A DNA stretch of 31,441 bases from Patescibacteria group bacterium. Its GTDB lineage: Bacteria > Patescibacteriota > Minisyncoccia > Phycocordibacterales > Phycocordibacteraceae. Positions within the stretch are counted from its first letter, which is position 1. Each line of letters starts with the position of its first letter. Positions 20,778 through 31,313 of this stretch are shown here, in pieces. The DNA is taken from NCBI GenBank assembly GCA_038063025.1, contig JBBTWA010000048.1, positions 1-31,441 on the forward strand, written 5' to 3'. The notes beneath the pieces are model-generated. The model had not been told where the DNA came from. It worked only from the letters and a program-made list of their open reading frames with translations, and did not search any database. The translations under genes and the position numbers were made by a program.

Positions 20778-22436
20778 TTACTTCTTCAAAACTGTCAGTA
20801 CAGAAACTCCGAAAGGAAAATCAATGTTCTTGAGAAGTTTTCTTTCAGCATTAAATATTGAGAAGAAAAACTTATTCAAGAATGGACTATTGATATCAAA
20901 GTCCGATTCTCTGCCCTTTATACCGAACAGTTTACTTATCAAGCGAACGCCGAAAATTGGCAGAAATAGGAATGTGTTGAAATAAGAAGACCTAAGTACC
21001 TCAAGCGAGGTAGATTCACCAACCTTCTTTAGCAAAGAATTCATCGTATAACGACGGTAATGATGAGCTACTTCATCCTGTACACCCCATAGGAACATGT
21101 AAGCAGGGACCATAATTATCGCCACTCCTCCAGGCTTCAGCACACGCCTTATCTCGTCGAGCGCCCATTTCTCATCCTCGAGATGCTCGAGTACATCGAG
21201 AACGAATACAGTATCAAAGGTGTCATCCGGAAAATCCACTTTATGTGAGTCAATGACATTCAGATTCTTTACTCCCTGAAGCATACCGAACTTGATTGCC
21301 TCTTCGGAAATATCCAATCCGTATGCTTGGTATCCTTGCTTTGCTAGCTCGTCGACAAATACTCCAGAACCGCAACCGAAGTCCAAGACTTTAGTTGCTA
21401 CTGGCTTCTTGTTCATATACAATTTCATATTGTCACTTGCAATCATCCTCCTGACTACCATGAGCCAATGTTCTTTTTCGATTTTAAAATAGTTTTTATA
21501 GAAACTTCTTTCCATGCCTGATGTATTCAGATCCCACAAATTCCAGTTAAATCTCTCGATATATTCATTGAGACATATCTTCCAATCTCTTGTCAAATGT
21601 GGGGCGATCTTTTTTAATTCTATATTTGTAAGTCTCTCTGAATGCGGACGAGGTGCAAAATAATTTTCCGAGAAAAAATCCGATTCGACTTCTTTCACTT
21701 TTACCTGATCGGTGAGTCCTAAACTCTCAAGAAGGTGTCTAGCGACATCGACTCGATTTCCGCCACCGTCACATGCCCCATGATACAAGCCGTATGCATC
21801 GTGGTCAAGAAGATATTTTATCGATTGCGCCAAGTCGTAGGTGTGGCATGGCGTGCCAAATTTATCATTTACTACTGCAAGTTCCTTGCTGCCAGCTCGA
21901 AGCTGTTTGATAATCTTGTTGACGAATTTTTTATCTTTTTTCGGACCACCTCCCATCATCCATCCGGCGCGTATGATAATCGACTTTGGCAACGTCTTTG
22001 CGATCAATTCGCCACCATATTTAGATTTACCGTATACACTCAATGGGTTTGGAGTATCATTCTCTGTGTATTCGTCCTTACCTCCGTCAAAGATTCCTGC
22101 TGTAGAGATATACACCAGTGGTATGTTGTGGTTTCTCGCGTATTCCGCTACGTTCAGCACCCCTCCTGTATTCGTAGCATAGGCATCTTCCGGATGAAGT
22201 TCGCAATATTCCATGTCGGTCAAGGCAGCCAGATGGACGATATAATTAGGTTTCACCTCTGTTAAATATGTGGCAACGTTCTTTGAGACGCGCACGTCTA
22301 GCCGCTCAAGCCATGGGGCATTTAGGTCAATATCCGAGAAGCGAGCGTTGCATACGTCTTTAAAAACATCGTAAACGGCCTCGCCAAGCATGCCGCCGCA
22401 GCCTGTTATTATTACCCTGTCGCTTTTGTGTATCAC
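20778..22436 (-). CDS. Fusion of an RmlD-like (dTDP-4-dehydrorhamnose reductase-family) SDR with a class I SAM methyltransferase
   Basis: N-terminal half: ITGCGGMLG, HLAALTD, YISTAGIFDG, YGKSKY, APRP. C-terminal half from Met308: E..HW, VLDFGCGSG, GLDIS, FDTVFVLDVLEH, RVLKPGG, HYRRYT. GTG start. Confidence 0.88.
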   Translation of the reverse strand: MIHKSDRVIITGCGGMLGEAVYDVFKDVCNARFSDIDLNAPWLERLDVRVSKNVATYLTEVKPNYIVHLAALTDMEYCELHPEDAYATNTGGVLNVAEYARNHNIPLVYISTAGIFDGGKDEYTENDTPNPLSVYGKSKYGGELIAKTLPKSIIIRAGWMMGGGPKKDKKFVNKIIKQLRAGSKELAVVNDKFGTPCHTYDLAQSIKYLLDHDAYGLYHGACDGGGNRVDVARHLLESLGLTDQVKVKEVESDFFSENYFAPRPHSERLTNIELKKIAPHLTRDWKICLNEYIERFNWNLWDLNTSGMERSFYKNYFKIEKEHWLMVVRRMIASDNMKLYMNKKPVATKVLDFGCGSGVFVDELAKQGYQAYGLDISEEAIKFGMLQGVKNLNVIDSHKVDFPDDTFDTVFVLDVLEHLEDEKWALDEIRRVLKPGGVAIIMVPAYMFLWGVQDEVAHHYRRYTMNSLLKKVGESTSLEVLRSSYFNTFLFLPIFGVRLISKLFGIKGRESDFDINSPFLNKFFFSIFNAERKLLKNIDFPFGVSVLTVLKK

Positions 22437-22443
22437 AAAAAAA

Positions 22444-23151
22444 TTATAATAACCCGAACCTGTATTTTAACATCTCTACAATAGTCGACACAATAACGTT
22501 CATTCTTGAGCCAGAAGCGAGTCCTTCAGTACGTGGAAAATGAGTGACCGGGAATTGGGCGACCTTAAAGCCCGCTTTCTTTGCTTTGATAATCATTTCG
22601 GCATCGATAAAACAACTAGAGCTCTTGATTGAGATGCTATTTAAGATTTCTCGTTTGTAAATTTTCATCGCACAATCAATGTCACGACACCAAACAAAGA
22701 ACAGAATGCGAATGAGCCAATTCCACACTTCAGACTGCACTTTGCGACGAAAAGAAACCTCTTTTTTTGTAACATACCCGCTCAGTACATCTGCCGTCTC
22801 TAAGAGATGAAGATATGGCAAAAATTCCCGCACATCATACTGATTGTCCCCATCGGTGTACATGACATAGTCATATTTCGCCGTAACGTATCCGCTGCGA
22901 AGCGCAGCTCCATAGCCCATATTCTTATGGTGATGTATTACACGTACATTTGGAAACTCTTTCGCTAGAGAATCCGCGACCTCGCCGGTTTTATCTGGAC
23001 TACCGTCCTCCACAATGATGATTTCAAAAATATCTGTTATTTCTTCTAAGAATTTAGAAACGTGAGGTACGAGAATCGGCAGATTTTTCTCATCATGATA
23101 CGCCGGGCAGAAGAAAGACACACTCGATAATTTATTAAGATTTTCCAACAT
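22444..23151 (-). CDS. DPM1-like GT2 polyprenol-phosphate glycosyltransferase
   Basis: FFCPAYHDE, IVEDGSPD, NMGYGAALRSG, YTDGDNQYD, RDIDCAMK. Confidence 0.88.
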   Translation of the reverse strand: MLENLNKLSSVSFFCPAYHDEKNLPILVPHVSKFLEEITDIFEIIIVEDGSPDKTGEVADSLAKEFPNVRVIHHHKNMGYGAALRSGYVTAKYDYVMYTDGDNQYDVREFLPYLHLLETADVLSGYVTKKEVSFRRKVQSEVWNWLIRILFFVWCRDIDCAMKIYKREILNSISIKSSSCFIDAEMIIKAKKAGFKVAQFPVTHFPRTEGLASGSRMNVIVSTIVEMLKYRFGLL

Positions 23152-23157
23152 ATCGGA

Positions 23158-23862
23158 TTATCGTTCTATAGCCCAGAACTTCAGAATTTTTAAGATTATT
23201 CTGACTCCATCGCGATACCGTATCTTCTTACCTGCATCCTGTGTACGCGGATTATACGATACAGGTACTTCTATAATCTTATATCCATCTTTCAACAGAC
23301 GTGTTATGAAAATCATTTCGGCTTCGAATCTACCAGTCGTGAAGTAGTCGAATGTCACGCGCGGAAAAAGTTTGTAGCCCATAAGAGCATCAGTCATCGA
23401 TGAACCATACAAGATGTTTATTAGTTTAGTTATCGATAAAGAACCGATGCGCGATAGCAGATTACTTTTTTCTTCATTTTGATTGCCCAATTCTCTAGAA
23501 CCCATCACGACAACTTTCTCTCCTGGAGAAAGACTTTCAAGAGGCTTTAATAACAGTGGAATTTCTTCCGGGGTACATTCTAGATCTGCGTCTTGAATGA
23601 CGGCATAGTTTCCTGTTGCTACGTCTATTCCAGCTTTGACAGCACTGCCCTTCCCACTGTTCTTTGCTAGATTCAGGACTTTAACACGAGACATGAAGCC
23701 ATTTAACACTAAAGCAGTATCGTCTGTCGAGCCATCATTAACAACAATAATCTCAACTGACCAATCCGTAAAAAGTATCTTAAGCAAGCGTTCTATAACA
23801 AGGCCGACAGTTCGTTCCTCGTTGTAACACGGAACGATGATTGATAATTTTTTAATGTTCAT
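23158..23862 (-). CDS. DPM1-like GT2 polyprenol-phosphate glycosyltransferase
   Basis: IIVPCYNEE, VNDGSTD, GKGSA, IQDADLE, VMGSR, TDALMGYK, EVPVSYNPR...GKKI...DG. Confidence 0.9.
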   Translation of the reverse strand: MNIKKLSIIVPCYNEERTVGLVIERLLKILFTDWSVEIIVVNDGSTDDTALVLNGFMSRVKVLNLAKNSGKGSAVKAGIDVATGNYAVIQDADLECTPEEIPLLLKPLESLSPGEKVVVMGSRELGNQNEEKSNLLSRIGSLSITKLINILYGSSMTDALMGYKLFPRVTFDYFTTGRFEAEMIFITRLLKDGYKIIEVPVSYNPRTQDAGKKIRYRDGVRIILKILKFWAIER

Positions 23863-25219
23863 GCGGAAGGTTTTTACTCGTGCGCTCGCGAGTTAACACT
23901 AACCCAGCATACGCCACGGCAAAAATAATCGGTTCAACAGGCATACGGAATCTGGCATTCACTGATAACCCATTTACCATAGTAGTTAGCATGAAATAAA
24001 AAACGACAATGACCGAAAATAGTAACTCTGGAGAGAAAAGTTTTGCTCGTAAGAGTCTGTATAGACCTAACCAAAAAAGTATCGTAACGGTTATCCAGAA
24101 CAACCGAGCAAAAAATACAAACGCCATATTAGTATGCATATATTCCCAAATAGTCTGAGCAAATTGCCATGGTGCGGTTATAAGCAGTAGGAGTGCTGGT
24201 TTTTGGAGATAAGATATCGGATTAATTCCGGCGGCCTGCAAGAATGTCAACATGCCGTCATGGGTAAAAAAGGTGAGCGCGTTTAGCGCTGAAAGCTCAA
24301 TAAGAGCAACAGGATGGCGTGATATTTCGGCTATCGCTTTTCCTGACAAAGAAGACAAGCTCGAGAGGTCTGAGTCGAGGAACACCGGTAGTTTTGCCTG
24401 TTCAACAGCGAAGCTCGTGTGATTCGCGATTGCGAGCACTGATGGCAGGAGCGTACCGTAGAGATTGAACGGCATCTGCGAGCTCAAGTTCGCGACGCCG
24501 AACGTCGTGTAATTGCGATAGAGCCATGGAATAAGCACGAACACGAAGACGACAACGAATGAGCCGAGCTGTATGAATAGTTTACGGTCGAGTGTTTTCC
24601 GGAACCGCCACACCATAAATGCGCCTACGACCACCGGCACGTATTGCACGGTCGGTTTTATGAGCGTAACGAGTCCGAGCAGGAATCCGGAAAGCATGGC
24701 CAACCGCATGGATGGCGTCCTCAAATAGCGGAAGAACGCGAGGAAGAAGATGCCGAACGTAAACGTGAACATGGTCTCGGTATAGAAGATGAAGGAGAAG
24801 AGCACTTGATACGGCGCAAGCGCGAGCAGTGCGCCGATGACGAGTGGCGCACGCGAGAGAGACGGCACAAGCACGCGTGCAAATTGCATGCCTATGACCG
24901 GTATGAGTGCACCAAGCACGAGTTGCACAATCGCGGTTGCCGCATAACTTCCTGTGAGCGAGAGGAGACCATACAAGACATACGGATAGCCTGGCACACC
25001 ATACGAATACGGCAAGAATGGTGCAGTCGGATTGATGCTGAACCCATTTCCGAGCAACAAGTTCTGGCTTAGCCCGAAATAACCGTCCTGACCACGAACC
25101 GTCGCTATCACGTCTCCCCCGTTCGCATATAAGCAAACGAAGAAAAAAACGAGTCTCGCAACAAGAGCGAGAGCGAAGATGCCGAGTTCGAGCTTATGTT
25201 GCTTGAGAAATGTTTGCAT
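23852..25219 (-). CDS. GT-C (PMT/ArnT-like) membrane glycosyltransferase
   Basis: 455 aa, about 11 hydrophobic helices; DGY...NL..G.GF, PGYP, YTE, G..TLIKP, PW..RN and terminal ARFRMPVEP motifs. Confidence 0.8.
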   Translation of the reverse strand: MQTFLKQHKLELGIFALALVARLVFFFVCLYANGGDVIATVRGQDGYFGLSQNLLLGNGFSINPTAPFLPYSYGVPGYPYVLYGLLSLTGSYAATAIVQLVLGALIPVIGMQFARVLVPSLSRAPLVIGALLALAPYQVLFSFIFYTETMFTFTFGIFFLAFFRYLRTPSMRLAMLSGFLLGLVTLIKPTVQYVPVVVGAFMVWRFRKTLDRKLFIQLGSFVVVFVFVLIPWLYRNYTTFGVANLSSQMPFNLYGTLLPSVLAIANHTSFAVEQAKLPVFLDSDLSSLSSLSGKAIAEISRHPVALIELSALNALTFFTHDGMLTFLQAAGINPISYLQKPALLLLITAPWQFAQTIWEYMHTNMAFVFFARLFWITVTILFWLGLYRLLRAKLFSPELLFSVIVVFYFMLTTMVNGLSVNARFRMPVEPIIFAVAYAGLVLTRERTSKNLPHEH

Positions 25220-26792
25220 TCGGGAATATGATATACCGATACACGCCTAAACTCCATATCGCTATGATGCCGGCAGAGAGGACCTGTGACAGCAGGTGCG
25301 GCAGGTGCAGTCCATCGACGAACGTGTACATTATTAGCGCGTTCATCGATACGTTGAATAGCGCGATGACGACATACCGACCAAACTGACGTGCGATCCA
25401 ACCGCGCGACCAATCGCGGAACGTGAAGAATTTTTGCGCGAGGAAGCTCACGACGACCGAAAGGATGAACGCGAGCGTCGAAGCAGCCATGTACCACAGG
25501 TCGAATGCCAGCTCGAAAAAGATAAAGAGCCCGATATTTGAGGTGAACGCAATCCCTCCGGACAACAGGTAACGGAACAATAGACGGAGTATCGCCCTGT
25601 TTTCCGCGACGGTCCATGCCGTCACATTATCCATGAACGAGAGGATGCGGCTCGCTCGCTTGCGCCAAGTGTGCTCCATTACCTTCGTGTAGGCGGCTGT
25701 AACCTTTCGAGAGGCCTCTCCCGCGCCATGAACGGCCTTTTCTATAGTCGTGGCAAACGAGGAGGCTGAGTCAGGCTCAGCGAAAAACACGTCTTCATCG
25801 GTAACAATTTCTTCGATTGACGGTATCCTCGATGCTACCACCGGAACACGACTCGCCATGTACTCAAACAGCTTCATAGGCGAGGTATAGTATTTAGAAA
25901 TATTTTCCTTTGCGGTATTCGGTAAAACAAGAACATCTGCCGCCTTCTGCCACAGCGGGATTTCCGCGTGCGGCTTAAAGCCGACAAACCGCAGATTCGG
26001 CACGGCAACGTGCGCATCTGTAAGCCTCTGGCGGTCTTCCGGCGTCCCTCCGACGAAGATGACGAGATAGTCATCCGGAAGCAGGTGCGCGGCGTCCGCG
26101 AGAGTATCGACTCCTTTCCATCCGTACAAATGCCCCGTATAAACAATTATCTTCACCGTATGAGGGAGCAACAGTCGCTCGCGCGCCGCTTCTTTCGTCA
26201 CCGGAATATCAAACTCGTCTATCTGCACCGCATTCGGCTCGCGCAGTACGCGCATACTGTCGAGACGGAAAGTCTTCTTCGCCTTCTCCGCCTTCCATGT
26301 GTTGTGAATGAGTAGCCAGCTCATTCGTCGCATGAAGATGCCGAAGAGTCCGAGACCGCGTTCCGGAAAATCATGCATCTCATATAATGTCTTTGGAAAC
26401 GTGAGCGACGCGACCATGAGTGGCAGTGGCTCGTTCGAGTATATCACGTCGTCGGACGTAGCGTGGCGCAACAGATATAAGTAACACGAGAGTGCAAACG
26501 TGAACGAGCTGAGCATGAAACGGATTGATGTCAACTTGTCTTTCGAGGGCAGATCGAGCACTGGCAAGTACGCAATGCGAAAGTTTTCACGTACTTGGTA
26601 ATACGCATACGGATCTCCCTGCTCCAGACCAAGCCGTCGCGACACAAGCAGTGTGACATCAAGTTCCTCGTCGGCGAATGCTTCACAGTTCTTCGCAGCG
26701 AAGAGCGACGCCGCTTTGTTGCTCGGAAACCTTCCGTGGAATATGAGAAACAGCTTTTTCGCGCGTCCTGACGATGCGTTGTGCGAGCTCAT
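25194..26792 (-). CDS. GT4 glycosyltransferase fused to a C-terminal GtrA-like (polyprenol-P-sugar flippase) domain
   Basis: GT4: YTGHLYGWKG, FVGG, DVLVLP, SPMKLFEYMAS. The last ~130 aa (about 25590-25194) read FRYLLSGG...SFLAQKFFTF...YRYIIF, a GtrA-type 4-TM pattern. Confidence 0.88.
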   Translation of the reverse strand: MSSHNASSGRAKKLFLIFHGRFPSNKAASLFAAKNCEAFADEELDVTLLVSRRLGLEQGDPYAYYQVRENFRIAYLPVLDLPSKDKLTSIRFMLSSFTFALSCYLYLLRHATSDDVIYSNEPLPLMVASLTFPKTLYEMHDFPERGLGLFGIFMRRMSWLLIHNTWKAEKAKKTFRLDSMRVLREPNAVQIDEFDIPVTKEAARERLLLPHTVKIIVYTGHLYGWKGVDTLADAAHLLPDDYLVIFVGGTPEDRQRLTDAHVAVPNLRFVGFKPHAEIPLWQKAADVLVLPNTAKENISKYYTSPMKLFEYMASRVPVVASRIPSIEEIVTDEDVFFAEPDSASSFATTIEKAVHGAGEASRKVTAAYTKVMEHTWRKRASRILSFMDNVTAWTVAENRAILRLLFRYLLSGGIAFTSNIGLFIFFELAFDLWYMAASTLAFILSVVVSFLAQKFFTFRDWSRGWIARQFGRYVVIALFNVSMNALIMYTFVDGLHLPHLLSQVLSAGIIAIWSLGVYRYIIFPNANISQAT

Positions 26793-27877
26793 CGTTCGAG
26801 GAACTCAGCGATTCGTTCGGCTTTCCGGTCCCAAGTGTAATCTTGCACCTTCTCGTACGCCCGCTCGACGTTCCGACTCGCGAGCGCCTCGTCGGCGAGT
26901 ATTTCTTCGACCGCCAACACGAAACCTGCGACATCATGCGGCGCAAATGCATACGCACAGTCGCCCAGTACTTCCTCGACAAGCCAGAGTTTCGAGTAGA
27001 TGATCGGACGCTGGCTCGCCATATATTCGTACACTTTCATCGGATAACCGAACCCAGGCTGATTCGGATACGGGATTGTGATGATGTCCATCGCCATCTG
27101 GTACTGTGCGACCTCGGTCGAACTTTTCACGCCGAAGAAGAAGCAGCGATCCTGCACCCCGAACGACGCCGCAAGTTTGGTGTATTCACGTATCTCCGCA
27201 TCCTTGCCACCGACGCATGCCACGACGCAGGATGCAGGAAGATGCGCGAGCGATTCGATCATTGTCGGGATGCCCTTCTCGAGCCCGAAAGTCTTAAAGA
27301 AGCCGATGTACCCGATGATCGTCTTCCCTTTCGGTAGCCCGAGCTCCGCGCGAGACGCCTTCTGCGTGTCAGCATACAGCTGCAGATTCACGCCGCCGTA
27401 CGCCGAACAGATATGCTCGCTCGTAGCGCCCCCGAGCTGTATTAGGTCGCGCTTCAATCCGTTCGAGGTTGTCACGAGCTCATCACTATTGCGGATGATG
27501 AACCGCTCTTTCTTCGTCTTCAGTACATTATGCCAATCCGAGCAGATGCGGTAGTCGAACCGAAATATCTTTTTCCAAAAGATGAAGTAGGTAAGCAGAA
27601 ACGTGTCGTTCGTGAAGAACACGAGATCATCCTCGTAGCGCCAGCGGTGTACGAAATACGGGATGCAGAAGAAGAAGAACGGGGAGCGGAACTTCTTGAG
27701 ACGCAATCTCAGATTGAACGTGTTGATATCGGTCAGCTCATCTGAAGTATCATTTGCAACGACGAACACGAATCTATTTTTGAGTAACTTCGTAAAGCTC
27801 TTTGCCAATTCGCGAGCATAGATCTTCATGCCATTATCAGCCGGATAGCGCATCGATGTGAAGTATACGAGTTTCAT
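26789..27877 (-). CDS. GT4 glycosyltransferase
   Basis: GYIG...EKG, CVGG, DIITIP, PMKVYEYMASQRPII; ATGA overlap with the next gene. Confidence 0.9.
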   Translation of the reverse strand: MKLVYFTSMRYPADNGMKIYARELAKSFTKLLKNRFVFVVANDTSDELTDINTFNLRLRLKKFRSPFFFFCIPYFVHRWRYEDDLVFFTNDTFLLTYFIFWKKIFRFDYRICSDWHNVLKTKKERFIIRNSDELVTTSNGLKRDLIQLGGATSEHICSAYGGVNLQLYADTQKASRAELGLPKGKTIIGYIGFFKTFGLEKGIPTMIESLAHLPASCVVACVGGKDAEIREYTKLAASFGVQDRCFFFGVKSSTEVAQYQMAMDIITIPYPNQPGFGYPMKVYEYMASQRPIIYSKLWLVEEVLGDCAYAFAPHDVAGFVLAVEEILADEALASRNVERAYEKVQDYTWDRKAERIAEFLER

Positions 27878-27880
27878 TGG

Positions 27881-28522
27881 TTATGCCTTACGAGCTTTCG
27901 CGACAAACGAAAGCGCGAACAGATTCGGCCATGCACGAGCCAGGAAGCGCATGAGATGGCTCAGCACAGGCACCCGTTCAAGGAACGTATTCACTCTCAT
28001 CACATCAACAACAAGACCGGATGCCGAAAGCATGGATAGCAGAATAGCATGATTGAACCAGTATATATGCCCTTTATTCGACCGATTGTTTTCCGGCACT
28101 CTTCCAAAAAGAGCTTGGAGTCGCGCGGGTAGCGAACTGAAATTAGGTACTCCGATTATGACGTATTTTTTTGAAACACGAGCAGCTTCTTTCAAAAGCG
28201 TCTCTGGTGCATAGAGGTGCTCGAGTACATCAAGCATCACAACGGTATCAAATGTGTTATCTGCAAATGGAATCGGCTTATTAAAATCAAAAAATGAAGC
28301 GGTTAAGCCTTTCGCGCGTGTCTTCGCAATGCCATTTTTCGAGATGTCGAGACCTTCGCCTTCGATGCCCTTCTGTTTCAAGAGCGATAAGAAGAGTCCG
28401 TCACCCGATCCGAGATCAAGAACATTTCCTCGCTCTATCATGCCGAGTGCTGCCTCATGGCGGAAGCAAATTTTTTGGTCGTCTTTCGCCCACCTTGTAT
28501 CTTCAAATTTATGTACATTCAT
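27881..28522 (-). CDS. Class I SAM-dependent methyltransferase (MetW/Methyltransf_11-like)
   Basis: VLDLGSGDG, GLDIS, FDTVVMLDVLEH, VPNF...R...GRVP. Confidence 0.88.
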   Translation of the reverse strand: MNVHKFEDTRWAKDDQKICFRHEAALGMIERGNVLDLGSGDGLFLSLLKQKGIEGEGLDISKNGIAKTRAKGLTASFFDFNKPIPFADNTFDTVVMLDVLEHLYAPETLLKEAARVSKKYVIIGVPNFSSLPARLQALFGRVPENNRSNKGHIYWFNHAILLSMLSASGLVVDVMRVNTFLERVPVLSHLMRFLARAWPNLFALSFVAKARKA

Positions 28523-28535
28523 ACCGTCATAAATT

Positions 28536-29696
28536 TTAGTGTATCAAGAGACGACTCAGATCCTCGAATACACGAGTCGGCATATCACCAACTTTGGCGA
28601 GATGAGCGCGAGCGACGGTCTCGGCACGGATGGGAAGCTCTAGGCGTACTCGCGTATCTTCTATGAATCCGACAATGCCGAGCGAGAGCGCAGTCGGGTC
28701 GTCCACTGGCACAGAGAGAACGTCTTCGTAACCCTTGAATACTTCGCCAACGATGCCGACGTCAGTTGTGATGATGGGCACCCTCGCGAGTGCGGCTTCA
28801 ATCAGCGTTCTGCCGTAGCCTTCATACGCGCTCGCTTGAATGAATGCGTTCGCGCTCCCCATGAGAGCTCTGGCGTCAGGTCTCTCCCCGAGGAATATAA
28901 CTCTGTCTGCGAGCCCGAGGTGGCGCGCCATTCTTTCCAATCGCCTTCGCTCGCTACCAGAACCGACGATAAAGAGGCCTACCATCGGATACTGCTTGGC
29001 GACAAGCGCGAGCGCCGTGAGGATGTCTTCTATGCGCTTTTCGGGCTCTAAGCGCCCAACAGAGATGAGAGAGAAGGTAAACGGGTGTTCTGGCAGTCGT
29101 ATGGGCTCTGGCACGGTAGAATCAACGGCTACAGGGATAACAGACGGCTCGGGAATTATGGAGCCATAGCGGGCTACAAGCGACTTCTTCACACGCTCTG
29201 AGACGACGCGGATGCCGTCTGCACGAGGCAGTACTCTGTCGGCGATTCGTCGTCGCCAGCGATTCAGGAGTGGCATTCGCACGCGCGGGCTCCTCCAATT
29301 ACCGCTTTTTATAAACCATGGGGAGAGAAAATCTGTATGCACTTGGATATGCAGTTTGGGTCTTGGTGCTTGGATTTTGGATATTGCACGAAGGGCTGCG
29401 AGCCCGTGCTCAAAGGGGTCCTGCGCCGAGACGATTTCAATGCCGTATTGAAGAATAAGCCAGTGCGCTCGCTCCGCGAGCGCACGAACACGGAATATCT
29501 TCCACGCATGCACCGGATGCAAAAAAAGATTTCCGTCCTGTTCTTCTCTCGCGTCTTTACTTGCAGAAGAAACAATGTGCAACTCTCCTGCCTGCGCAGG
29601 CAGGCCTATAGCCGCCGCATACGCGCGCATACGCGCGCGCGCGGCGCTGGCCGCATCAAATATCGTAGGGTCGTTTGAAACAAAGAGGACTTTCAT
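28536..29696 (-). CDS. GT4 glycosyltransferase
   Basis: MKVLFVSND start (29696 preferred over 29768), VGRLEPEKR, VGSG, EGYGRTLIEAA (EX7E), TTDVG. Confidence 0.92.
   Translation of the reverse strand: MKVLFVSNDPTIFDAASAARARMRAYAAAIGLPAQAGELHIVSSASKDAREEQDGNLFLHPVHAWKIFRVRALAERAHWLILQYGIEIVSAQDPFEHGLAALRAISKIQAPRPKLHIQVHTDFLSPWFIKSGNWRSPRVRMPLLNRWRRRIADRVLPRADGIRVVSERVKKSLVARYGSIIPEPSVIPVAVDSTVPEPIRLPEHPFTFSLISVGRLEPEKRIEDILTALALVAKQYPMVGLFIVGSGSERRRLERMARHLGLADRVIFLGERPDARALMGSANAFIQASAYEGYGRTLIEAALARVPIITTDVGIVGEVFKGYEDVLSVPVDDPTALSLGIVGFIEDTRVRLELPIRAETVARAHLAKVGDMPTRVFEDLSRLLIH
29587..29604. repeat. Perfect 18-bp palindrome CCTGCCTGCGCAGGCAGG inside the GT4 CDS
   Basis: The sequence equals its own reverse complement; it encodes the LPAQAG segment. 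Confidence 0.9.
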
Positions 29697-29698
29697 AT
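29692..29698. repeat. 7-bp direct repeat TTCATAT, left copy (right copy at 30275-30281), flanking dinJ-yafQ
   Basis: Identical 7-mers at both boundaries of the toxin-antitoxin cassette. Confidence 0.6.
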
Positions 29699-29967
29699 TA
29701 TTTAAAAAGATCAGGGTGGGTCCCTGTTCTTGCGACAAATACTGTTTCCGGTGTAAGTGCATACACAAGAAGCCAATCTGATTCCAAATGACACTCCCAA
29801 TATCCTAGATACTCGCCTTGTAGCTTATGTGCACGATAACGATTGGGCAGATATCCTTTTATGGAAAGGAGCGTTACCGCATTAATAAGTTTCTTAACAC
29901 TTCTTCCTCGGCGTGTCATGCGCGCTTGGTCTTTTTTGAGCGCAGGCAGATACACTATGTCGCGCAT
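29698..29967 (-). CDS. yafQ: YafQ-family type II toxin (ribosome-dependent mRNA interferase)
   Basis: 89 aa; KKD, HKLQG, WECHLESDWLLVY, RTGTHPDLF are YafQ motifs. Confidence 0.92.
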   Translation of the reverse strand: MRDIVYLPALKKDQARMTRRGRSVKKLINAVTLLSIKGYLPNRYRAHKLQGEYLGYWECHLESDWLLVYALTPETVFVARTGTHPDLFK

Positions 29968-29972
29968 GATGA

Positions 29973-30245
29973 TTATGCAGTCTTGGAAACTTTTCGCATC
30001 TCTTTAATGAAGTCGTTCAGAGAGACGCGGGCACCCTCACCGTGCTTCATGGCGCGGATTGCTGTACGCGTCTCGGCATTTGGCACATGAAGAGAAAATG
30101 GTATTCCCTTGTCACTCACAATACGTCTATAAAATACGTTAATCGCTTCTGAAGGGGATATGCCAATCTTAGACAGCACCGTTTCAGCCTTCTCTTTTAT
30201 TGAAGGCTGTATACGGGCGCGCACTAAAGCAGTTTTTGTAGTCAT
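29973..30245 (-). CDS. dinJ: RelB/DinJ-family antitoxin (ribbon-helix-helix)
   Basis: VRARI...K..AE.VL..IG.S.SEAI..F...I....GIPF...PNAET..A; directly upstream of yafQ. ATG at 30245 preferred over 30272. Confidence 0.92.
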   Translation of the reverse strand: MTTKTALVRARIQPSIKEKAETVLSKIGISPSEAINVFYRRIVSDKGIPFSLHVPNAETRTAIRAMKHGEGARVSLNDFIKEMRKVSKTA

Positions 30246-30251
30246 ATTAGG

Positions 30252-30273
30252 ATTGTAGCACATGTGTGCCACA
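30252..30273 (-). promoter_or_regulatory. Leaderless extended -10 promoter (TGCTACAAT) overlapped by an imperfect palindromic operator
   Basis: TGCTACAAT at 30260-30252 lies 6 nt before the dinJ ATG; palindrome TGTaGCACAtgTGTGCcACA at 30254-30273 (16/20 symmetric). Confidence 0.65.
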
Positions 30274-30275
30274 GT

Positions 30276-31313
30276 TCATATATGCATTTCCTCGGCGAGG
30301 CGCCGCGCAAGTACGGAAAGCGTGTGTGCATCTATCGTCTTCGCCTGCAATTCGCGGACATGCGCATTCCGTTCTTCTTCGGAGAACGCGAGCGACTTCT
30401 CCAGATGATTCGCCAGGTCGTCTGTGTCACTATCTCTATATGCGAATTCAGGACCGGCAATTTCTTTCATGTCGGCGCTCGAAAAGAGCGGGAGACATCC
30501 GCAAGCGATAGATTTGAAAAGCGATTTATCAAGCATCCCGCTTTTCCCGCAGTTCACATATATCGTGTGCGAACGATAGTAGCGATAAGTGTCTGTCGCC
30601 GGCACCGGACCGACGAAAGTAACTTTATCTGAAAGTCCTAGCTCTACTGCGCGTTCTTCAACTTCTTTTGGAAACGATGAACTTTGGTCCTTCGGACCGC
30701 CGACAAAGGTGGCAGTAAACATAATTCCATTTTCTGCTATTTTCCCCAGCGCTTCCACAACAAGGTCCGGACGCTTTGATTTATCAAATCTGCCGAGAAA
30801 GAGGACCGAGCGCGGTTTTCGCTCTACCGGAATATCCAAGCGGCATGAGTCGACATCAACACCGACCGGCATCTGCACTGCTTGGGAATATTTTGACGTG
30901 TAAGACGATTTGGACGTATAAAATACTTTATCGCAGAAGAGCGCGGCGATATCGGTAAGAATATTTCCATCATAGTGATTGCGCCACATGTACACTCGCT
31001 TTCCGAGAAGCTTGAAAAGCCATCCTGCAACCAGCAGGTATTCCTGATTCATGTGCACTAGAACCGCATCATACTCGTTACGGCGCGTCCACGTCAGGCC
31101 AATGGCTCGAAATGCCGTGCGGAACCTAGCGCGATATCCCCACGGGCGAAGCGGAATAACTGTTATGTTCTCCGGTAGCTCATATTCGCCAATCCGAAGT
31201 GCAAAAATCGTAATGTGCTCAAAATGTTGAGAGAGCTCAACTATCCAGCTATGGAACCTGCCAAGCGTTGAGTCCTTACGGTCAACGGTCTGCATGAATA
31301 TAAGAAGACGCAT
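30276..31313 (-). CDS. GT4 glycosyltransferase
   Basis: MRLLIF.Q.VD..D..LG.F..W, VHMN.EY, LFLGRFDKSKRP, FVGG, GMLDKSLFKSIACG. ATG at 31313 preferred over the TTG at 31322. Confidence 0.88.
   Translation of the reverse strand: MRLLIFMQTVDRKDSTLGRFHSWIVELSQHFEHITIFALRIGEYELPENITVIPLRPWGYRARFRTAFRAIGLTWTRRNEYDAVLVHMNQEYLLVAGWLFKLLGKRVYMWRNHYDGNILTDIAALFCDKVFYTSKSSYTSKYSQAVQMPVGVDVDSCRLDIPVERKPRSVLFLGRFDKSKRPDLVVEALGKIAENGIMFTATFVGGPKDQSSSFPKEVEERAVELGLSDKVTFVGPVPATDTYRYYRSHTIYVNCGKSGMLDKSLFKSIACGCLPLFSSADMKEIAGPEFAYRDSDTDDLANHLEKSLAFSEEERNAHVRELQAKTIDAHTLSVLARRLAEEMHI

What the first reader, a model, noticed from the sequence alone, without database searches (positions are those of the whole stretch)
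29692..30281. dinJ-yafQ cassette inserted at an ATGA gene overlap, flanked by a 7-bp direct repeat, with no mobility gene
Seen: ATATGAA (minus strand) occurs at 30281-30275, containing the upstream GT4 stop, and at 29698-29692, containing the downstream GT4 start. Removing one copy plus the 576 bp between them gives ...CAT ATA TGA / ATG AAA GTC, the same 4-nt ATGA coupling used elsewhere in this locus. The cassette carries only promoter, antitoxin and toxin, and yafQ TAA is 1 nt from the next ATG. Inference: a minimal TA module integrated with a target-site duplication that left both GT genes intact. It could stabilise the glycan island and place the 8 downstream glycan genes under TA autoregulation, i.e. 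stress-responsive surface remodelling. Caveat: the repeat contains the common ATGA motif.
Basis: partly seen in the sequence, partly recalled or inferred. Interest (0 to 1): 0.7.

Follow-up and report, generated by a model that had tools for sequence, protein, structure and literature searches.

The report
Toxin-antitoxin cassette wedged between overlapping genes
A small, apparently intact dinJ-yafQ toxin-antitoxin gene pair has been inserted exactly where two sugar-transferase genes of a tiny groundwater bacterium used to overlap; relatives still show the predicted empty site, and several different toxin-antitoxin pairs have landed at this same junction in related species, so it is a clear footprint of how such selfish modules move but not a new kind of system.

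Summary
ATATGAA occurs on the minus strand at 30281-30275 (holding the GT4 stop) and at 29698-29692 (holding the next GT4 start), with 576 bp between. That stretch holds a palindromic operator/-10 box, a RelB/DinJ gene and a YafQ gene.

The predicted empty site exists. Seven relatives have the two GT genes overlapping by four bases (read as ATGA in six). One, L115, reads ATGCATATATGAAAGT, exactly the sequence predicted for G000 before insertion.

The junction is a hotspot. Three other relatives carry a RelB/YafQ pair there:
- L107: same left junction, different toxin module.
- L117: flanked by a 9-bp repeat, CATGAAAAC.
- L121: an unrelated pair.

The cassette belongs to a family found across groundwater Parcubacteria. 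Its operator and DinJ N-terminus are conserved, its toxin modules are swapped, and it nearly always sits beside or just upstream of a glycosyltransferase gene.

The 7-bp repeat alone is weak evidence (P about 0.06). Repeat lengths vary from 5 to 10 bp and there are no terminal inverted repeats, so I favour microhomology or target-duplication recombination over transposition. Control of the glycan operon by the cassette is untested.

This scan has already noted similar toxin-antitoxin insertions with duplicated targets on other DNA.

The parts
30276..31313 (-). Upstream GT4 glycosyltransferase ('GTup', 345 aa, MRLLIFMQTVD...EEMHI*). Its TGA stop at 30278-30276 is the stop of the former ATGA overlap.
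   Evidence: Pfam Glycos_transf_1 and Glyco_trans_1_4. Close orthologues of 345 aa end at the homologous position.
30275..30281 (-). Left copy of the direct repeat ATATGAA. ATGAA is a relic of the old overlapping start of the downstream gene.
   Evidence: The empty sites read ..ATGAaag..
30252..30272 (-). Cassette promoter/operator: an 18-bp imperfect palindrome GTGGCACACATGTGCTAC overlapping a TG-extended -10 box, TACAAT (30257-30252). The -35 position is occupied by the junction sequence ATGAAC.
   Evidence: Unique in the window. Conserved in 20+ related cassettes. Function is inferred.
29973..30245 (-). dinJ/relB antitoxin gene (90 aa).
   Evidence: PF04221, E 2.6e-14. The N-terminal 57 codons are 88-98% nt identical to L107.
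29698..29967 (-). yafQ toxin gene (89 aa).
   Evidence: PF15738, 86 bits. Aligns to E. coli YafQ, PDB 4ML2, E 4.7e-14, with the His/His/Asp/His positions kept.
29692..29698 (-). Right copy of the direct repeat ATATGAA. It holds the last A of the yafQ TAA, one spacer T and the functional ATG-AA of the downstream GT4.
28536..29696 (-). Downstream GT4 glycosyltransferase ('GTdown', 386 aa, MKVLFVSNDP...). Its start lies 1 nt after the yafQ stop.
   Evidence: Pfam Glycos_transf_1 at 107 bits and Glyco_transf_4. Orthologues found.
20778..28522 (-). Seven further co-oriented glycan genes with gaps of -26 to +13 nt: a MetW-like methyltransferase, a GT4, a GT4-GtrA fusion, a protein with a weak GT-C-type (PMT_2) match, two GT2 genes and an RmlD-methyltransferase fusion. 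They probably share a transcription unit with GTdown.
   Evidence: Co-transcription is inferred from spacing only.

Best explanation
An apparently intact, autoregulated dinJ-yafQ type II toxin-antitoxin cassette lies between two GT4 genes. Before the insertion these genes were coupled by a 4-nt ATGA stop/start overlap.

The cassette belongs to a family spread through groundwater Parcubacteria (Kaiserbacteria-like). The family has a conserved palindromic operator, a conserved DinJ DNA-binding half and a conserved yafQ 3' end. The DinJ C-terminus and toxin are exchanged as modules. Members sit almost always beside or directly upstream of a glycosyltransferase gene.

How it arrived (inferred): recombination that left the junction's ATGAA (5-7 nt) on both sides. 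GTup kept its stop and GTdown kept its start. The most likely route is illegitimate or microhomology-mediated recombination, or 'insertion with target duplication' as described for restriction-modification units. A transposase acting on the cassette is less likely.

How it works now (inferred):
- DinJ, or the DinJ-YafQ complex, binds the palindrome that overlaps the -10 box and represses an internal promoter.
- YafQ is a ribosome-dependent mRNA endonuclease held in check by DinJ.
- GTdown, 1 nt after the yafQ stop and without a Shine-Dalgarno sequence, is translated by coupling to yafQ.
- The 8 downstream glycan genes receive transcripts both from upstream read-through and from the dinJ promoter.
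- The module persists as an addiction or stabilising element, and possibly as a phage-defence element, in a variable surface-glycan locus.
For: Shown:
- TA identity and intactness.
- Seven empty sites with a four-base stop/start overlap between orthologues of the same two genes: L026/G033, L113, L114, L115, L116, L120 and L123. ATGA was read in the first six; for L123 only the coordinates were seen. L115 reads gaagagatgcatatATGAaagt, which is the predicted pre-insertion sequence.
- GTup is 345 aa in every close orthologue, so its stop is the original one.
- Independent contigs bridge both junctions.
- Cassette GC3 is 36-44% against 51-57% in the flanking genes.
- Further filled versions of the same junction:
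  - L107/L118/L119 have an identical left junction, TATGAACT|GTGGCAC. Their dinJ 5' half is 88-98% nt identical to G000, against 74% for GTup, and the toxin module is different.
  - L117 has a 9-bp repeat, CATGAAAAC (P<0.001).
  - L121 carries an unrelated RelB/YafQ pair.
- At another ATGA junction of the same cluster (GTdown to the next GT), G010, L093 and L100 carry cassettes flanked by (T)ATGAA. Six relatives show that junction empty, with ATGA.
- In L097 an imperfect 10-nt repeat, ATGAAA(G/A)CCC, flanks the cassette plus a GIY-YIG gene.
- Family-wide conservation of the operator, the DinJ N-terminus and the yafQ 3' end, with at least 3 toxin modules.
- No terminal inverted repeats. No recombinase among the window ORFs scanned.
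Against: - The 7-bp repeat alone is weakly significant (P about 0.06). ATGA and AA are functionally constrained (stop, start, Lys codon), and T at -1 is common in the empty sites.
- L107, which shares G000's left junction, shares only ATGAA between its two sides.
- Several family members (L110, L105, G014/L111, L121) show no flanking repeat.
- Filled and empty sites are interspersed on a poorly resolved GTup tree. Precise loss or lateral replacement therefore cannot be separated from repeated gain.
- There are no expression data. A weak hairpin plus T-run inside the yafQ 3' end (29726-29712; z -0.9) could attenuate read-through.
- The -35 element is lost at the junction, so promoter strength is unknown.
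- Toxicity, neutralisation and operator binding are untested.
Confidence: 0.62

Rival explanations
1. The cassette is a non-autonomous mobile element moved by a transposase or site-specific recombinase encoded elsewhere. The enzyme would recognise the cassette ends and target ATGAA-type gene starts, and the flanking repeat would be a true target-site duplication or core site.
For: - Repeats containing the downstream gene's ATG flank cassettes at five or more different junctions.
- The cassette ends are conserved.
- The same junction was hit repeatedly.
Against: - Repeat length varies from 5 to 10 nt, and some copies have no repeat.
- The distance from the left repeat to the operator varies from 2 to 42 nt.
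- There are no terminal inverted repeats.
- There is no room for an attC-like site: the yafQ stop is 0-4 nt from the next ATG.
- The genome holds a single copy.
- No recombinase lies nearby.
Confidence: 0.13
2. The polarity is reversed. A TA cassette was ancestral at this junction, and the 'empty' ATGA overlaps arose by precise deletion between the short flanking repeats. The different cassettes seen now came from later replacement by homologous recombination.
For: - Filled sites are scattered among empties on the GTup tree.
- Module swapping shows that recombination within cassettes is frequent.
- Direct repeats can mediate precise deletion (general knowledge).
Against: - The more distant orthologues G033 (68%) and L123 (62%) are empty.
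- Left-junction structures differ between G000/L107, L117 and L121.
- ATGA overlaps are the usual coupling throughout these clusters.
- The cassette has a lower GC3 than its flanks.
Confidence: 0.1
3. Nothing was duplicated. The cassette arrived with its own downstream ATGAA (or the ATG arose later), and the match of the two 7-mers is coincidence plus constraint on stop and start contexts.
For: - P is about 0.06 under the liberal null.
- TAATATGA also occurs at the dinJ start.
- The right junction TAA-T-ATGAA is shared by related cassettes in other contexts: G010, G033:C76, L097 and L110.
- G014 has TAATACGAG at the homologous place.
Against: - The spacer between the yafQ stop and the ATG varies across the family (T, C, A, AA, AAA), so homology ends at the stop codon.
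- L117's 9-nt and L097's 10-nt repeats reach into the target gene's own codons.
- Both the original stop and the original start survive at homologous positions.
Confidence: 0.15

Closest known systems
DinJ-YafQ type II toxin-antitoxin system of E. coli (PDB 4ML2, 4Q2U)
   Same: - Gene order is antitoxin then toxin, with a 5-nt gap.
- The antitoxin is RelB/DinJ-type and the toxin is YafQ-type, with conserved His/His/Asp/His positions.
- A palindrome overlaps the promoter.
   Different: - The sequence match to E. coli YafQ is distant (E 4.7e-14, 55 bits).
- It lies inside a glycan operon with no free-standing intergenic context.
- The downstream gene starts 1 nt after the toxin stop.
- Activity is untested.
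Insertion with (long) target duplication of restriction-modification gene units (Furuta, Abe & Kobayashi 2010, PMC2853133, and the earlier H. pylori work they cite)
   Same: - An addiction-type gene unit without its own mobility gene.
- Direct repeats that align with the empty site of a relative.
- Repeats that span a translation start or stop, so the target genes stay intact.
- Insertion into operon-like structures.
   Different: - The repeat here is 5-10 nt, whereas their criterion is more than 30 bp.
- The cargo is a TA pair, not an RM system.
- The target is a 4-nt gene overlap.
'Mix and match' of toxin and antitoxin modules in type II TA families (Leplae et al. 2011, recalled from memory and not read here)
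   Same: One conserved antitoxin DNA-binding half and operator is combined with at least 3 different DinJ C-terminus/YafQ modules.
   Different: Here the swap is seen at one orthologous chromosomal site (G000 against L107). The breakpoints map to dinJ codon ~57 and the yafQ 3' end.
Integron gene cassettes carrying TA pairs (Vibrio superintegrons; recalled from memory)
   Same: Small promoter-proximal TA units without their own recombinase, inserted at a short core sequence.
   Different: There is no attC (no space after yafQ), no intI and no cassette array. The cassette carries its own promoter.

Membership tests
DinJ-YafQ (RelB/YafQ) type II TA | A small antitoxin gene immediately upstream of a small toxin gene in one operon | tested here: met
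   dinJ 30245..29973 (90 aa) and yafQ 29967..29698 (89 aa), separated by a 5-nt gap.
DinJ-YafQ (RelB/YafQ) type II TA | The antitoxin matches the RelB/DinJ family above the curated cut-off | tested here: met
   PF04221: 53.3 bits against a cut-off of 22.4.
DinJ-YafQ (RelB/YafQ) type II TA | The toxin matches the YafQ family and keeps the catalytic His/His/Asp/His positions | tested here: met
   PF15738: 86.4 bits against a cut-off of 30. The alignment to 4ML2 keeps the H of 'y+ H lqg', the H and D of 'H+e DW' and the H of 'rtgtH'. Calling these residues catalytic rests on my own knowledge.
DinJ-YafQ (RelB/YafQ) type II TA | Toxicity of the toxin, neutralisation by the antitoxin, and autorepression at the operator | not testable with these tools
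   Only the conserved palindrome over the -10 box was seen.
Transposon / MITE-like element | Terminal inverted repeats at both ends | tested here: not met
   No inverted-repeat pair has its arms at the cassette ends.
Transposon / MITE-like element | A target-site duplication of fixed length in all copies | tested here: not met
   Repeats of 5, 6, 7, 9 and 10 nt, or none, across the family.
Transposon / MITE-like element | Multiple copies per genome, or a transposase in cis or in trans | tested here: inconclusive
   The 85%-complete genome holds a single copy. The window ORFs scanned show no recombinase. The rest of the genome was not searched for transposases.
Integron cassette | An attC recombination site at the 3' end and an intI/attI platform | tested here: not met
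   Only 1 nt lies between the yafQ stop and the next ATG. The window ORFs scanned include no integrase.
Insertion with long target duplication (Furuta et al. 2010) | Flanking direct repeats that both align with a single copy in an empty-site relative, with no mobility gene | tested here: met
   The empty site in L115 carries one ATATGAA; G000 carries two.
Insertion with long target duplication (Furuta et al. 2010) | A duplication longer than 30 bp | tested here: not met
   7 bp here, and 5-10 bp in related events. The criterion was read in PMC2853133.

The most novel reading that the evidence does not exclude
The dinJ-yafQ cassettes of these Parcubacteria are a family of promoter-carrying mobile modules. 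They home to the ATGAA(A) start or stop-start overlap of glycosyltransferase genes by an undescribed recombination route that needs no recombinase of their own. They repeatedly rewire surface-glycan operons by placing them under a toxin-antitoxin-controlled internal promoter and by coupling translation of the glycosyltransferase to that of the toxin.
Probability: 0.15. Interest if true: 0.75.

Novelty: new member of a known kind. Interest (0 to 1): 0.45.

Why it matters
Chromosomal toxin-antitoxin pairs are known to move between genomes, but clean footprints of how they enter a site are rare. This locus provides the following together:
- filled sites and exact empty sites;
- at least three different cassettes at one gene junction;
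- a toxin-module swap at an orthologous site;
- short repeats that duplicate the start of the target gene.

It gives a concrete, testable case for recombinase-free insertion of addiction modules into operons without breaking genes. It occurs in ultra-small CPR bacteria that are often said to carry few defence or addiction systems. It also raises a testable question: does tying a surface-glycan operon to a TA promoter and to toxin translation have any regulatory meaning?

Tried and rejected
- Reads: contigs of four other groundwater runs were laid on the locus. No contig skipping the cassette was seen. These are Logan contigs, which drop rare variants, so this says nothing about minority empty-site cells.
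- RNA: no RNA holder was listed, so expression could not be examined.
- The consensus promoter scan did not flag the dinJ promoter, because its -35 matches only 3 of 6 positions. It gave no more terminator-like sites than shuffled sequence. The hairpin in the yafQ 3' end is not stronger than in shuffles.
- PADLOC: no defence-system model matched DinJ, YafQ or either GT.
- Literature searches for TA insertion with target duplication, in CPR or elsewhere, found no direct description.
- An assembly chimera was rejected.
- The idea that TATGAA is a fixed tail of the cassette was rejected as a general rule, because the spacer after the stop codon varies.
- The GTup tree was too poorly resolved to count gains and losses.
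- Complex prediction and structure prediction were not used. DinJ-YafQ is a textbook pair, and a pass would not change the reading.
Full report
**What is in the sequence**

On the minus strand the window reads ...GAA ATG CAT ATA TGA ac tgtggcacacatgtgctacaat cctaat ATG (dinJ) ... TAA tcatc ATG (yafQ) ... AAA TAA t ATG AAA GTC (next GT4).
- ATATGAA lies at 30281-30275 and again at 29698-29692, with 576 nt between the copies.
- The first copy holds the TGA stop of a 345-aa GT4 gene, which I call GTup (31313..30276).
- The second copy holds the ATG of a 386-aa GT4 gene, which I call GTdown (29696..28536).
- Pfam identifies the two small ORFs as RelB/DinJ (E 2.6e-14) and YafQ (86 bits against a cut-off of 30).
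- The YafQ aligns with E. coli YafQ structures (4ML2, E 4.7e-14), and the His, His, Asp and His positions are kept. That these are the catalytic residues is my own knowledge.
- The 30-nt leader carries an 18-bp imperfect palindrome, GTGGCACACATGTGCTAC. It is unique in the window and overlaps a TG-extended -10 box, TACAAT.
- The rest of the contig is a glycan-biosynthesis island. None of the ORFs scanned encodes a recombinase.
- The window is the whole of contig C48 of a 517-kb, 85%-complete genome. Close homologues carry the source names Candidatus Kaiserbacteria and Paceibacterota. The DNA occurs in groundwater metagenomes.

**Is the structure real?**

Logan contigs from four other groundwater runs, from three studies, bridge both junctions. 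One of them covers 29474-31100 without a single difference. The filled site is therefore not an assembly chimera.

**The empty site**

This holds.
- In the same-genus genome G033, the GTup orthologue (68% aa) and the GTdown orthologue (71%) overlap as ...aacaacATGAaagca....
- I searched for GTup orthologues and fetched their contigs. Six more have the two genes overlapping by four bases: L113 (79% aa to G000 GTup), L120 (77%), L114 (75%), L115 (74%), L116 (74%) and L123 (62%). I read the ATGA letters in all of these except L123, where only the gene coordinates were seen.
- L115 reads gaagagatgcatatATGAaagtactc. The stretch ATGCATATATGAAAGT is exactly the pre-insertion sequence predicted for G000.
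- GTup is 345 aa in every one of these close orthologues. The G000 stop and the G000 GTdown start are therefore the original ones, each kept on its own side of the insert.
- L114 also has the same downstream gene order as G000: MetW-like methyltransferase, GT4, GT4-GtrA.

**The junction is a hotspot, and the cassette belongs to a family**

Three other GTup orthologues also have a RelB/YafQ pair between GTup and GTdown.
- *L107/L118/L119 (76%).* The left junction, TATGAACT|GTGGCACACATGTGCTACAAT, is identical to that of G000. The first ~160 nt of dinJ are 88-98% identical to G000, while GTup itself is only 74% identical. From about codon 57 of dinJ to the last codons of yafQ the sequence is unrelated, i.e. 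a different toxin module. Similarity resumes at GATCTTTTTGAATAA.
- *L117 (79%).* It carries a third module. Here a 9-bp repeat, CATGAAAAC, which contains the GTdown start, flanks the cassette even though GTup ends earlier at a TAA. The chance of such a match is below 0.001 under my null.
- *L121 (76%).* It carries an unrelated RelB/YafQ pair with its own spacers.

A pattern built from the operator and the dinJ start found further copies.
- It found 4 copies in 222 genomes of the genus.
- A longer version of it found 20 metagenome loci, of which 19 are real cassettes.
- All share the operator, the DinJ N-terminus (..TKTAFVRARIEPSIKKKAE..SPSEAINVFYRRI..GIPF) and the yafQ 3' end. They carry at least three different toxin modules.
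- In most of them the yafQ stop is followed within 0-4 nt by the ATGAA of a glycosyltransferase gene.
- In other contexts the cassette has its own -35 element (TTGCAT, TTGCGT or TTGTAA, 16 nt upstream of TACAAT). In G000 and L107 that position is taken by the junction's ATGAAC, so the insertion breakpoint cut into the promoter.

At a second ATGA junction of the same cluster (GTdown to the next GT), G010, L093 and L100 carry cassettes flanked by (T)ATGAA. Six relatives show that junction empty, as an ATGA overlap.

Other copies add detail:
- In L097 the upstream gene stops in gTATGAAAGCCC. The cassette and a 94-aa GIY-YIG gene follow, and then GTdown starts ATGAAAACCC. This is an imperfect 10-nt repeat.
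- L104 has ATGAAA on both sides.
- G033 contig C76 has a decayed copy: dinJ is intact and yafQ is reduced to 21 codons.

**How much weight does the repeat carry?**

Little on its own.
- Under a liberal null the G000 7-mer has P about 0.06. With boundaries fixed to within 8 nt, P is 0.006.
- ATGA is constrained by being both a stop and a start. AA is the common Lys codon. T at -1 is present in 5 of the 6 empty sites read.
- TAATATGA also occurs at the dinJ start.
- In L107 only ATGAA is shared between the two sides.
- L110, L105, G014/L111 and L121 show no flanking repeat.

What is solid is that the 4-5 nt of the old overlap now exist twice, once on each side of the insert, and that the same thing happened at several other junctions with repeats of 5 to 10 nt.

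The variable repeat length, the variable distance from the left repeat to the operator (2-42 nt), the absence of terminal inverted repeats, the single copy per genome and the lack of room for an attC-like site all argue against a transposase or an integron. They fit illegitimate or microhomology-mediated recombination. They also fit 'insertion with target duplication', which Furuta, Abe and Kobayashi described for restriction-modification units. In that work the repeats often span a start or stop and leave the target genes intact, and insertion into operon-like structures was seen (PMC2853133). Their repeats are longer than 30 bp, so this case is a short-repeat relative of that phenomenon and not a member by their criterion.

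**Direction of the event**

- The more distant orthologues G033 and L123 are empty.
- The filled sites carry different cassettes with different junction structures.
- Cassette GC3 (36-44%) is below that of the flanking genes (51-57%).

Insertion is therefore the more economical reading. However, the GTup tree is nearly a star, and filled and empty sites are interspersed on it. I cannot exclude precise loss in some lineages, or lateral replacement.

The insertion is not recent. Type-A cassettes differ from each other about as much as the host genes do (69-84% nt).

**Function (inferred, not shown)**

- By analogy with E. coli DinJ-YafQ, DinJ or the DinJ-YafQ complex should repress the promoter at the palindrome, and free YafQ should cut translated mRNA.
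- GTdown starts 1 nt after the yafQ stop and no Shine-Dalgarno sequence is visible, so its translation is probably coupled to that of yafQ.
- There is no terminator between GTup and dinJ. The eight downstream co-oriented genes (gaps of -26 to +13 nt) therefore probably receive both read-through transcripts and transcripts from the dinJ promoter.
- A weak hairpin and T-run lie inside the yafQ 3' end, but they are no stronger than in shuffled sequence.

**Novelty**

- The TA pair is an ordinary member of a known family.
- The mode of arrival resembles something known for restriction-modification units.
- Earlier notes of this scan report analogous TA cassettes with duplicated targets on other DNA: AbiE between sugar genes, Doc at a trpE overlap, and NTase/HEPN pairs.
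- New here are the very short repeat at a 4-nt overlap, the exact empty sites, the recurrent use of one junction by different RelB/YafQ pairs, the module swap at an orthologous site, and the tight linkage of this cassette family to glycosyltransferase starts in CPR glycan clusters.
- I found no paper describing this.

Noticed in passing
window 29587-29604: The 18-bp palindrome inside GTdown (GCCTGCCTGCGCAGGCAG region) is absent from the orthologous gene of L107, which shows an 18-nt gap in the alignment. This is consistent with an in-frame insertion, as another first-reader note on this window suggests.
   Followed up: partly
L078 (G033:C76) 1132-1511: A decayed cassette of the same family. 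The operator is a perfect palindrome (GTAGCACATATGTGCTAC) and dinJ is intact, but yafQ is reduced to 21 codons by an internal deletion. A GT gene still follows as TGA-T-ATGAAA.
   Followed up: partly
L097, downstream of the cassette (about 290 nt): A 94-aa stand-alone GIY-YIG protein gene lies between the cassette and GTdown. It starts 1 nt after the yafQ stop and overlaps the GTdown start by ATGA. It may be a second small insert at the same junction.
   Followed up: no
G000 contig C84 24862-25391 (L002/L125): A second, distant RelB/YafQ-like pair in the same genome (YafQ 30.5 bits, RelB 23 bits). A third weak YafQ-like hit lies on C64.
   Followed up: no
window 29759-29829: In three other groundwater runs, a contig matches only this 70-nt piece inside yafQ and runs on into unrelated sequence on both sides (loose ends). 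It is probably a related yafQ in another organism, or a recombination tract.
   Followed up: no
L121 3058-3619: An unrelated RelB/YafQ pair with a different operator region occupies the same GTup/GTdown junction in another relative.
   Followed up: partly
window 29693-29700 and 30242-30249: TAATATGA (minus strand) occurs both at the dinJ start and at the GTdown start, 549 nt apart. Short start-context repeats of this kind are common here, which warns against over-reading 7-8-nt repeats.
   Followed up: yes
L113, L114, L116, L120, L121, L123 (gene upstream of GTup, opposite strand): The divergent GT4 next to GTup in relatives carries weak to clear hits to PF20706, 'GT4 in conflict systems'. G000's own GTdown scores 27 bits against a cut-off of 26, but it matches the general GT1 and GT4 models far better.
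   Followed up: no
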